64,000 nt of DNA, from assembly GCA_964016885.1 (NCBI GenBank), contig OZ024751.1:38254001-38318000 (forward strand), read 5' to 3'. Positions 51,808-54,537 of this stretch are shown piece after piece. The position numbers and the translations under genes are program-made. The notes under the pieces were generated by a model. The model saw nothing but the letters and a program-made list of their open reading frames with translations. It did no database searches and was not told where the DNA came from. The DNA comes from Eledone cirrhosa. Its lineage: Eukaryota. How positions within the stretch are numbered: position 1 is the first letter of the stretch; each line of letters begins with the position of its first letter.

Positions 51808-52310
51808 CCCTGGAAAGACACCGTATGAAAATGGAAAAAAAGATGAAGAAAAATATGCGACGGAAAATATACTGTAAAAATAACGATAAAGTTATGAAGA
51901 AATGAGATGAAAAAGAAAGAAAATAATAGGGAAGACTAACAAAATAAAGAGGAAATGAAAGGAAATAGAGAAAGAGGGGGGGGGAGTATATATAAGACAA
52001 TTGTGAATAAAATACTGTGTATGAAATAAATGATAGCAAATATATATTTCATTTAAACAATCTCCGAACACCTCATGAACTGCTGATATAGTCACATGAG
52101 TTTTGACGACTATAATACAGTTATATATATATATATATATATTTATATATTTATATATAAAAGTGAGTTACAAACGAAACGAAATTTAATTTCGTTCGTT
52201 ATTTGTTTTTATCGTCTCCGTTGAACCGGTACGTACTCACGCTCTATGCAAATTGGTCTGCCCACTACTAATTTTCATAGAAAAAGCATATAACGATATG
52301 TGCTTTCACG

Positions 52311-52406
52311 ATTCTCTAGAGAAGCCGGAAGATAGGTAAATATTGCTGATGAGATGTAACAACATCGAAACTAGTCCAATATTCCTTGTCTGGCTTTCTG
52401 GAGAAT
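52311..52406 (+). ncRNA. Type I hammerhead ribozyme, copy 1 (predicted cleavage after GUC, 52376)
   Basis: AATATTG-CTGATGA-GATGT-AACA-ACATC-GAAA-CTAG-TC-CAATATT: intact core, 5-bp stem II, palindromic minimal stem III (ACTAGT), bulged stem I extending to about 29 bp. Confidence 0.93.
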
Positions 52407-52775
52407 AGAGGAAAGGTGTTTCCTCAAAAACCAGTATGACTCTAAGAACCGGTTTGTCTGTGTGTCTACATACGGAATAGCTGGACACTCACAGTAAAGT
52501 GACCAGTGAAAACTCGGTACATCTACATATGTACACGTGTGTGTATTCATATGCATACTAGTATTTCAGTATACATATGTGGATGTACATTTTTAACTTA
52601 ATTGTTTAAGCGTCAGTCATACAAAAGTGAGTTACAAACGAAACGAAATTTAATTTCGTTTCGTTATTTGTTTTTATCGTCTCCGTTGAACCGGTACGTA
52701 CTCACGCTCTATGCAAATTGGTCTGCCCACTACTAATTTTCATAGAAAAAGCATATAACGATATGTGCTTTCACG

Positions 52776-52871
52776 ATTCTCTAGAGAAGCCGGAAGATAG
52801 GTAAATATTGCTGATGAGATGTAACAACATCGAAACTAGTCCAATATTCCTTGTCTGGCTTTCTGGAGAAT
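52776..52871 (+). ncRNA. Type I hammerhead ribozyme, copy 2 (cleavage after 52841)
   Basis: Identical to copy 1. Confidence 0.93.
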
Positions 52872-53240
52872 AGAGGAAAGGTGTTTCCTCAAAAACCAGT
52901 ATGACTCTAAGAACCGGTTTGTCTGTGTGTCTACATACGGAATAGCTGGACACTCACAGTAAAGTGACCAGTGAAAACTCGGTACATCTACATATGTACA
53001 CGTGTGTGTATTCATATGCATACTAGTATTTCAGTATACATATGTGGATGTACATTTTTAACTTAATTGTTTAAGCGTCAGTCATACAAAAGTGAGTTAC
53101 AAACGAAACGAAATTTAATTTCGTTTCGTTATTTGTTTTTATCGTCTCCGTTGAACCGGTACGTACTCACGCTCTATGCAAATTGGTCTGCCCACTACTA
53201 ATTTTCATAGAAAAAGCATATAACGATATGTGCTTTCACG

Positions 53241-53336
53241 ATTCTCTAGAGAAGCCGGAAGATAGGTAAATATTGCTGATGAGATGTAACAACATCGAAA
53301 CTAGTCCAATATTCCTTGTCTGGCTTTCTGGAGAAT
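53241..53336 (+). ncRNA. Type I hammerhead ribozyme, copy 3 (cleavage after 53306)
   Basis: Identical to copy 1. Confidence 0.93.
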
Positions 53337-53705
53337 AGAGGAAAGGTGTTTCCTCAAAAACCAGTATGACTCTAAGAACCGGTTTGTCTGTGTGTCTACA
53401 TACGGAATAGCTGGACACTCACAGTAAAGTGACCAGTGAAAACTCGGTACATCTACATATGTACACGTGTGTGTATTCATATGCATACTAGTATTTCAGT
53501 ATACATATGTGGATGTACATTTTTAACTTAATTGTTTAAGCGTCAGTCATACAAAAGTGAGTTACAAACGAAACGAAATTTAATTTCGTTTCGTTATTTG
53601 TTTTTATCGTCTCCGTTGAACCGGTACGTACTCACGCTCTATGCAAATTGGTCTGCCCACTACTAATTTTCATAGAAAAAGCATATAACGATATGTGCTT
53701 TCACG

Positions 53706-53801
53706 ATTCTCTAGAGAAGCCGGAAGATAGGTAAATATTGCTGATGAGATGTAACAACATCGAAACTAGTCCAATATTCCTTGTCTGGCTTTCTGGAGAA
53801 T
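53706..53801 (+). ncRNA. Type I hammerhead ribozyme, copy 4 (cleavage after 53771)
   Basis: Identical to copy 1. Confidence 0.93.
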
Positions 53802-54170
53802 AGAGGAAAGGTGTTTCCTCAAAAACCAGTATGACTCTAAGAACCGGTTTGTCTGTGTGTCTACATACGGAATAGCTGGACACTCACAGTAAAGTGACCA
53901 GTGAAAACTCGGTACATCTACATATGTACACGTGTGTGTATTCATATGCATACTAGTATTTCAGTATACATATGTGGATGTACATTTTTAACTTAATTGT
54001 TTAAGCGTCAGTCATACAAAAGTGAGTTACAAACGAAACGAAATTTAATTTCGTTTCGTTATTTGTTTTTATCGTCTCCGTTGAACCGGTACGTACTCAC
54101 GCTCTATGCAAATTGGTCTGCCCACTACTAATTTTCATAGAAAAAGCATATAACGATATGTGCTTTCACG

Positions 54171-54266
54171 ATTCTCTAGAGAAGCCGGAAGATAGGTAAA
54201 TATTGCTGATGAGATGTAACAACATCGAAACTAGTCCAATATTCCTTGTCTGGCTTTCTGGAGAAT
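54171..54266 (+). ncRNA. Type I hammerhead ribozyme, copy 5 (cleavage after 54236)
   Basis: Identical to copy 1. Confidence 0.93.
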
Positions 54267-54537
54267 AGAGGAAAGGTGTTTCCTCAAAAACCAGTATGAC
54301 TCTAAGAACCGGTTTGTCTGTGTGTCTACATACGGAATAGCTGGACACTCACAGTAAAGTGACCAGTGAAAACTCGGTACATCTACATATGTACACGTGT
54401 GTGTATTCATATGCATACTAGTATTTCAGTATACATATGTGGATGTACATTTTTAACTTAATTGTTTAAGCGTCAGTCATACAAAAGTGAGTTACAAACG
54501 AAACGAAATTTAATTTCGTTTCGTTATTTGTTTTTAT

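What the first reader, a model, noticed from the sequence alone, without database searches (positions are those of the whole stretch)
52159..54537. Candidate retrozyme: five near-identical 465-bp units, each with an intact self-cleaving hammerhead
Seen: an exact 465-bp period, no real ORF, and in every unit the full hammerhead core (CUGAUGA, stem II, GAAA, GUC) closed by stem I. Established: tandem 'monomer plus type I hammerhead' arrays define non-LTR retrozymes, non-autonomous retroelements whose transcripts self-cleave into monomers and circularise (described from coral, mussel and amphibians). Inference: a + strand read-through transcript would be cut after 52376, 52841, 53306, 53771 and 54236, releasing four identical 465-nt RNAs able to form viroid-like circles. 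The unit looks long relative to animal retrozymes as I recall them, and I do not recognise this family, so it may be undescribed in this host (not verifiable here).
Basis: partly seen in the sequence, partly recalled or inferred. Interest (0 to 1): 0.93.

Follow-up and report, generated by a model that had tools for sequence, protein, structure and literature searches.

The report
Young hammerhead retrozyme family in octopus
This is one of over a thousand recent insertions of a small non-coding jumping element that carries a self-cutting RNA motif, and the shape of its insertions points to a Penelope-type reverse transcriptase copying a circular RNA round and round, a step long proposed for such elements but not described from insertion anatomy in the papers read here.

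Summary
In detail: five 465-bp units (the first 464), each with a type I hammerhead whose helices covary across relatives, end in a 55-bp partial unit against (TA)n. This is not a local satellite. The exact 3' junction occurs 1,680 times in this probably octopod genome. Insertions typically have two head-to-head arms. One ends at unit position 55, the other at 443-451, both in (TA)n. That is the two-site 'tail' signature of Penelope-like element (PLE) priming, also seen in two young protein-coding PLE families here. Young insertions each carry one haplotype through up to about 21 units. Their 5' ends are scattered, none exactly at the ribozyme cut. Best reading: a non-LTR retrozyme, with its RNA circle copied by rolling-circle, target-primed reverse transcription by a PLE enzyme. 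Cleavage, expression and circularity were not shown. The partner PLE is unresolved and shares no detectable sequence with the unit. The class and its PLE link are published, and 465 bp lies within the published size range. The host record and the insertion anatomy appear new in the papers searched.

The parts
52159..54537 (+). Whole insertion: a single arm of 5.1 units, 5'-truncated at unit position 1 and ending at the fixed priming site A (unit position 55)
52159..52622 (+). Unit 1, 464 nt, one-base deletion at unit position 39
52623..54482 (+). Units 2-5, 465 nt each, identical; no ORF; predicted circular fold -152.4 kcal/mol with 66% paired
52328..52399 (+). Hammerhead 1 (type I, extended helix I, 5-bp helix II, palindromic 2-bp helix III); predicted cut after 52376
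52793..52864 (+). Hammerhead 2; predicted cut after 52841
53258..53329 (+). Hammerhead 3; predicted cut after 53306
   Evidence: identical unit
53723..53794 (+). Hammerhead 4; predicted cut after 53771
   Evidence: identical unit
54188..54259 (+). Hammerhead 5; predicted cut after 54236
   Evidence: identical unit
54469..54537 (+). PLE-type 'tail': the stretch between priming site B (unit 443-451, most often 451 or 446) and site A (unit 55). It is 69-77 nt long and holds a 13-bp hairpin at 54497-54525
52122..52158 (.). (TA)n target, left flank at the truncated 5' end; no target-site duplication can be resolved
54538..57736 (.). (TA)n target, right flank at priming site A
52711..52718 (+). ATGCAAAT, present in every unit and kept in the 64-75% identical sister family. 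The 'octamer' label is recalled; a promoter role is untested

Best explanation
A recent insertion of a non-autonomous, non-LTR retrozyme mobilised by a Penelope-like element (PLE). Step 1 (inferred): a tandem locus is transcribed on the + strand. Step 2 (inferred from the structure and its conservation): paired hammerheads cut out 465-nt monomers, probably as double hammerheads, and the monomers are ligated into circles. Step 3 (genomic signature shown, biochemistry inferred): a PLE reverse transcriptase/GIY-YIG enzyme nicks both strands of a (TA)n tract. It primes each 3' end at one of two fixed internal sites about 70 nt apart on the RNA. Step 4 (inferred from array anatomy): each enzyme runs round the circle for a variable number of turns and stops at a random point. 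The two cDNA 5' ends are then joined, giving head-to-head arms of identical units. The window copy kept only the site-A arm. Any arm with two hammerheads can restart the cycle.
For: Dispersal: 1,680 exact site-A junctions with a reversed-pattern control of 0, 459 exact site-B(446) junctions, 4,917 exact read-through junctions and 1,491 exact copies of this hammerhead. Fixed 3' ends: of 70 closed arm ends in 43 loci, 41 lie at unit 54/55, 28 at 443-451 and 1 elsewhere (21 of the site-A ends were selected for). In the set not chosen by its ends, 13 of 21 loci are two-armed, and all 12 with both ends visible have one A end and one B end. In the set chosen by site A, all 13 second arms with a visible end stop at 446 or 451. 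Two young coding PLE families in this genome also end at two fixed sites in (TA)n, 60 nt apart and about 68 nt apart. Two adjacent internal start sites are what a purified PLE enzyme uses on both target strands (PMC11167929). Single-monomer bottleneck: each of 21 young loci is uniform for one of five haplotypes, and both arms agree in 13 of 13. Arms reach 18 units, and one run holds 30 junctions at about 466-bp spacing. Private substitutions are rare, 28 in 87,367 nt, and none is shared by neighbouring units. No template end: 67 arm 5' ends are spread round the unit (Rayleigh p about 0.5), none at position 220. Selection on the RNA: 34 of 55 shared substitutions fall in the 34% of positions predicted unpaired (p 2e-5; subfamily descent makes these non-independent), and the hammerhead helices covary.
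Against: No cleavage, transcript or circle was shown. In vitro, the anole PLE did not need hammerhead cleavage and used unprocessed RNA as its main substrate. Only 1 of 9 Xenopus retrozyme dimers cleaved. 7 of 67 5' ends lie within 10 nt of the cut against 3.0 expected (p 0.03). Some arrays are not pure copies of one monomer. L047 carries the same 114-nt deletion in 2 of 7 units, not periodically. L039 has 98A in 3 non-adjacent units. The older array L153 reuses private variants in non-adjacent units. No autonomous element with a homologous terminal repeat was found among 50 GIY-YIG loci or the 50 loci of the 1277-aa family, and tail alignments of this family to four PLE ends were no better than shuffles. 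Of paired shared substitutions, 12 of 21 keep the pair against 38% expected, which is not significant (p 0.06).
Confidence: 0.65

Rival explanations
1. Same PLE-driven priming, but the template is an uncut linear multimer transcribed from a long source array. The ribozyme is slow or dispensable, and circles, if made, are a by-product.
For: Hammerhead mutants did not affect insertion by the anole PLE in vitro. Helix III is weak. Long arrays exist as possible sources. The repeated deletion in L047 and the reused variants in L153 fit a multi-unit template.
Against: Single-base haplotypes are fixed across all units of both arms in 21 of 21 young loci. A new mutation in one unit of a linear source would give mosaics. 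5' truncation would shorten arrays at each generation. There is no pile-up of 5' ends at a transcription start. The ribozyme fold is conserved with compensatory changes across families.
Confidence: 0.2
2. Cleaved linear monomers are the template, and the enzyme builds arrays by jumping from the 5' end of a monomer to the 3' end of the same or another monomer.
For: There is a mild excess of 5' ends near the cut (7 of 67 against 3.0). Variants reused in non-adjacent units (L039, L153) could come from a pool of monomers.
Against: No 5' end lies exactly at 220, and only 3 of 67 lie within 4 nt (p 0.14). No indels recur at the cut site in the young arrays apart from the noisy L034. Up to 18 precise jumps in a row would be needed.
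Confidence: 0.1
3. Short (1-2 unit) PLE-type insertions expand afterwards into satellites by unequal crossover or slippage, as the 2026 preprint proposes for vertebrate retrozymes.
For: This is the model discussed in bioRxiv 10.64898/2026.07.22.740005. Older arrays show shared private variants, so some later turnover is likely.
Against: The youngest insertions (99.4-100% identical between chromosomes) already hold up to about 21 units in two inverted arms, and their private variants are singletons, not blocks.
Confidence: 0.05

Closest known systems
Non-LTR retrozymes of coral, mussel and axolotl (Cervera and de la Pena 2020, PMC7229834)
   Same: Non-coding tandem units of a few hundred bp, low G+C, a type I hammerhead in each unit, a highly self-paired predicted circle, and co-existence with PLEs.
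   Different: The host is probably an octopod. Expression as circles was shown there and not here. A word search of that paper found no 'inverted', and the sections read describe no fixed internal priming sites. There, PLE mobilisation and more-than-unit cDNA are stated as a hypothesis.
Vertebrate non-LTR retrozymes as non-autonomous PLE derivatives (bioRxiv 10.64898/2026.07.22.740005)
   Same: Size range of 51-972 bp, multimers, and proposed hijacking of PLE machinery.
   Different: Their link rests on co-occurrence and on pLTR homology (24 of 57 Xenopus families), and tandems are attributed to local expansion. Here no pLTR homology was found and the link rests on insertion anatomy. No mollusc was among their 35 genomes (31 vertebrates, 3 insects, 1 coral).
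Penelope-like elements, EN+ clades (Craig et al. 2021, PMC8557442; Frangieh et al. 2024, PMC11167929)
   Same: Partial tandems, an inverted 5'-truncated copy, a 'tail' at one end from two internal start sites, AT-rich or (TA)n targets, and a hammerhead.
   Different: No ORF. The tail is 69-77 nt rather than the published 30-40 nt, although this genome's coding PLEs have tails of 60 and about 68 nt. The unit is copied many times per arm. The hammerhead is the canonical extended type rather than the minimal type.
Non-autonomous Chlamys elements such as MRC1 (PMC8557442)
   Same: Non-coding PLE passengers with multicopy head-to-tail insertions.
   Different: Chlamys mostly lack canonical hammerheads, and the non-autonomous ones generally resemble their autonomous partner at the 3' end.
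Newt satellite hammerhead (double-hammerhead type; review PMC6155905; PMC4209133)
   Same: A weak palindromic helix III, expected to cleave as a dimer.
   Different: Different sequence and host; here the repeat is a dispersed, very young mobile family.

Membership tests
Non-LTR retrozyme | Head-to-tail tandem units of a few hundred bp, G+C below 50% | tested here: met
   465-bp period; G+C 0.36 over 52001-54000
Non-LTR retrozyme | Canonical type I hammerhead in every unit (6-bp helix I, helix II, 1-2 bp palindromic helix III) | tested here: met
   definition from PMC4209133. Below the Rfam gathering score
Non-LTR retrozyme | No protein-coding capacity | tested here: met
   longest stop-free frame 64 aa
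Non-LTR retrozyme | No LTR, primer binding site or polypurine tract | tested here: inconclusive
   No LTR layout in 43 loci; PBS and PPT were not searched for explicitly
Non-LTR retrozyme | Dispersed multicopy family | tested here: met
Non-LTR retrozyme | Stable self-paired circular fold | tested here: met
   -152.4 against -97.6 +/- 6.1 kcal/mol, 0 of 50 shuffles as low; substitution pattern. Prediction only
Non-LTR retrozyme | Self-cleavage of the transcript | not testable with these tools
   needs an in vitro assay
Non-LTR retrozyme | Accumulates as monomeric circular RNA | tested here: inconclusive
   run type unknown for all laid runs; contigs cannot tell a circle from tandem DNA
PLE-mobilised (non-autonomous PLE) | Two fixed internal 3' ends giving a 'tail' at one end | tested here: met
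   69 of 70 closed ends at two sites
PLE-mobilised (non-autonomous PLE) | Inverted 5'-truncated arm | tested here: met
   13 of 21 loci; 14 of 21 junctions; absent from the window copy
PLE-mobilised (non-autonomous PLE) | AT-rich or (TA)n target | tested here: met
PLE-mobilised (non-autonomous PLE) | Young intact PLE in the same genome | tested here: met
   1277-aa family, top 150 matches at 99-100%; L081 family, 40 of 40 scored copies identical
PLE-mobilised (non-autonomous PLE) | Sequence homology to an autonomous pLTR | tested here: not met
   none for the families examined; 100 PLE loci seen out of more than 10,000 candidates, so a homologous partner may have been missed
Autonomous PLE | RT plus GIY-YIG ORF | tested here: not met
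Local satellite DNA | Confined locus, expansion by DNA recombination | tested here: not met

The most novel reading that the evidence does not exclude
A viroid-like 465-nt RNA circle with no detectable sequence kinship to any coding PLE examined recruits a PLE enzyme by shape. Two active sites prime on the same circle about 70 nt apart, one from each strand of a (TA)n break, and each rolls round it up to about 30 times. If so, this octopod genome holds more than 1,600 fossil products of rolling-circle target-primed reverse transcription, a step proposed in 2014 and 2020 and not shown in the papers read here. It also holds intact candidate enzymes with which to test it.
Probability: 0.5. Interest if true: 0.82.

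Novelty: new member of a known kind. Interest (0 to 1): 0.62.

Why it matters
How animal retrozymes move is still open. Reviews state that their repeats show no conserved motif pointing to the autonomous partner (PMC7761336), and the 2026 preprint leaves the mechanism unresolved. This family gives nucleotide-level priming sites, a PLE signature, very young copies and at least two young intact PLE ORFs in one genome. The published in vitro PLE assay could therefore decide directly whether a circle is the template and whether the hammerhead matters. A natural RT that copies circles for many kilobases into a defined target would also interest genome-writing work. The family is also a substantial, very recent source of insertions in a probably octopod genome.

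Tried and rejected
Rfam at gathering thresholds found nothing. The miRNA and sraA hits are below cut-off and fall on the unit's hairpins, so they were rejected. Sequencing runs: no RNA holder was listed; this is no evidence either way. In the 4 runs laid, of 24 listed, X4 and X5 each give one contig of 495 and 496 nt. That equals unit length plus 30, a closed cycle if the word size is 31 (recalled), but tandem DNA gives the same result and the run type is unknown. Partner search: one Pfam accession recalled from memory is not in the library. 50 GIY-YIG loci showed no homologous pLTR. A query spanning the L038 chimera found no second chimera among 40 of 2,333 candidates. Tail alignments of this family to four PLE ends were not significant, with 17-259 of 300 shuffles as good. 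The sister family against the L081 end was borderline, 9 of 300, one of eight tests. PLE fragments beside L152, L160, L161 and L163 are separated from the element by (TA)n and were treated as co-insertions into the same target. An RNA-editing (A>G) signature was looked for and not found: 0 of 28 private substitutions. Target-site duplications cannot be resolved in (TA)n. Pfam gave no hit on the 1277-aa ORF; it is called a PLE from its alignment to the L083 RT/GIY-YIG protein (22% over 465 aa, E 1e-15) and from its insertion layout. Earlier scan findings: three look-ups returned nothing. PMC5785218 is not held. Only 20 of a planned 60 unbiased loci could be read.

Full report
Observation. The array is as described. 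Five units start at 52159 (464 nt), 52623, 53088, 53553 and 54018 (465 nt, identical), and a 55-nt partial unit ends at 54537. Both sides are (TA)n. There is no frame longer than 64 aa. The predicted cuts at 52376, 52841, 53306, 53771 and 54236 are right and would release four identical monomers.

The ribozyme. Rfam finds nothing at gathering level. Hammerhead_HH9 aligns end to end at 38.9 bits, E 3.7e-8, against a cut-off of 52. Helix I has 6-7 bp, an internal loop and a distal stem; helix II has 5 bp; helix III is 2 bp around a palindrome. This matches the 'canonical' metazoan type I motif as defined in PMC4209133, which works as a dimer in tandem repeats. In the predicted circle, helices I and II have pair probabilities of 0.65-1.0, while helix III is unfavourable in a monomer and favourable between two copies. 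Across three variants of this family and three of a 64-75% identical sister family, the core and helix III are nearly invariant, and 6 of 13 pairs change on both sides. The top pair of helix II is unpaired in all 3 sister sequences, so those may be weaker. A compensatory change in helix II also occurs in run contigs and in 5 of the 33 loci with a full unit. Activity itself was not tested.

The family. The own genome is 3.0 Gb. The first search found 602 candidates, scored 28 and returned 299 matches; the 150 listed were 99.4-100% identical and lay on many contigs. Exact pattern counts are 1,680 for the 3' end joined to (TA)n, 459 for one form of the second end, 4,917 for the read-through junction and 1,491 for this hammerhead; reversed-pattern controls were 0. 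The first 20 loci on C1 show subfamilies up to about 12% apart. The host is probably an octopod: the best named relative of a PLE protein here is from Octopus vulgaris, 69% identical. Near-identical sequence lies in runs labelled as three other organisms that were laid; their nature is not on record.

Insertion anatomy. Of 21 loci chosen by identity to the unit, 13 have two arms joined head to head. In all 12 with both outer ends visible, one arm ends at unit position 54/55 and the other at 443-451, each in (TA)n. Of 21 junctions chosen by the first end, 14 have a second arm inside the fetched stretch, and all 13 with a visible end stop at 446 or 451. Over 43 loci and 74 arms, 69 of 70 closed 3' ends fall at these two sites. 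Neither site is the ribozyme cut (219/220). This is the PLE signature: an inverted 5'-truncated copy and a tail at one end (PMC8557442). In vitro, the tail arises from two adjacent internal start sites, used on both nicked strands of AT-rich DNA (PMC11167929). Coding PLEs of this genome behave alike. The 1277-aa family ends at two sites 60 nt apart (16 and 16 ends), usually one per arm. The L081 family ends at two sites about 68 nt apart (8 and 8 ends).

Template. Each of the 21 young loci is uniform for one of five haplotypes that differ by single bases, and both arms agree in 13 of 13. Arms reach 18 units, and one run has 30 junctions. Private substitutions number 28 in 87,367 nt, with the indel-rich L034 left out, and are not shared by neighbours. 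The 5' ends of 67 arms are spread round the unit with none at 220; 7 arms were dropped as open, at a gap or 60 nt or shorter. A circle explains all of this: one monomer, no end, and any length. Several results go against a pure single-circle model. 7 of 67 ends lie within 10 nt of the cut against 3.0 expected (p 0.03). The same deletion occurs in 2 of 7 units of L047, and variants recur in non-adjacent units of L039 and L153. The anole PLE did not need cleavage in vitro. Agreement of the two arms could also reflect one active source locus per cell rather than one molecule.

Partner. The partner is unresolved. One young array (L038) is joined 5'-to-5', with no (TA)n between, to an inverted truncated copy of the 1277-aa PLE, 99.7% identical to an intact copy; the contig ends before that arm's end. 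That family shares the AT^CG context of site A. An older array (L165) is joined through a 40-nt inverted unit fragment to a Neptune-like copy of the L087 family. The related L081 family is also very young (40 of 40 scored copies identical), and its tail spacing is closest to the modal 69 nt. No significant sequence homology links the unit to any of these ends. Either chimera could be chance adjacency after a target deletion. Clade names are my reading of motifs (C-terminal GIY-YIG with a zinc-finger-like linker) against PMC8557442; no tree was built.

Literature seen. bioRxiv 10.64898/2026.07.22.740005: parts 1-3 of 5, abstract to discussion; supplements closed, so the species tables were not seen. 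PMC11167929: parts 1-2 of 4, main text. PMC7229834: passages, part 2, and sections 14 and 17; supplements not read, and they may list more molluscs. PMC8557442, PMC4209133, PMC6155905, PMC7761336, PMC3846280 and PMC13282606: passages only; the last, an O. vulgaris repeat annotation, has no occurrence of 'ribozyme'. Searches for octopus with hammerhead ribozyme, retrozyme with cephalopod and three mechanism searches listed no report of an octopus retrozyme or of two-armed retrozyme insertions. Most subscription papers, Repbase and Dfam were not searched, so the repeat may be catalogued there.

Verdict. This is a real, very young non-LTR retrozyme family: a new member of a known kind. What lifts it is the anatomy, which ties a retrozyme to PLE priming at nucleotide level and favours rolling-circle copying. 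The fixed ends, inverted arms, uniform haplotypes and structural conservation are shown. Transcription, cleavage, circles and the enzyme are inferred. Interest 0.62.

Noticed in passing
window 13947-14302 (+): Sub-unit remnant of a sister hammerhead family (74-89% identical to L091:8600-9111), ending in (TA)n at the equivalent of site A; its helix III is mutated.
   Followed up: partly
L091:8100-9900, L092, L075: Sister non-coding family with units of about 420-511 bp, 64-75% identical to the unit. It has the same layout, a GUA triplet, compensated helix I and similar ends.
   Followed up: partly
window 11984-12371 (+): Broken GIY-YIG fragment of an older relative of the 1277-aa PLE, 61% identical over 107 aa.
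   Followed up: partly
L131:2519-6349 (-) = G000:C1 near 154.52 Mb: Hyperactive PLE with a 1277-aa open frame, an Asn-rich insert and no Pfam hit; 24,669 candidates, top 150 at 99-100%. Its clade was not determined.
   Followed up: partly
L081, L087, L093 pLTRs: Hammerhead-like motifs starting UUGAAAA, which would replace the C3-G8 pair by U3-A8 (numbering and reading are mine, by eye), with an ACCGGU palindrome.
   Followed up: no
L087:~100 (-), L088:7986 (+): A further, unrelated hammerhead family with a longer helix II.
   Followed up: no
L046:3201-3875: A repeat of about 650 bp without an obvious hammerhead forms what looks like the second arm of a retrozyme insertion and ends in (TA)n; it recurs in several other loci.
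   Followed up: partly
L035: About 75 bp of host LINE sequence appears inverted on both sides of the insertion, suggesting a rearrangement of the target.
   Followed up: no
window 44407-45309: 33-bp minisatellite with higher-order 65/98/150-bp periods.
   Followed up: no
window about 31400-32300 and 14380-14470: Short inverted-repeat insertions beside (TA)n tracts, resembling two-armed remnants of other elements (seen).
   Followed up: no
G000: Forward and reverse counts of the junction are exactly equal (840 and 840). This is probably chance; the other patterns gave unequal counts.
   Followed up: no
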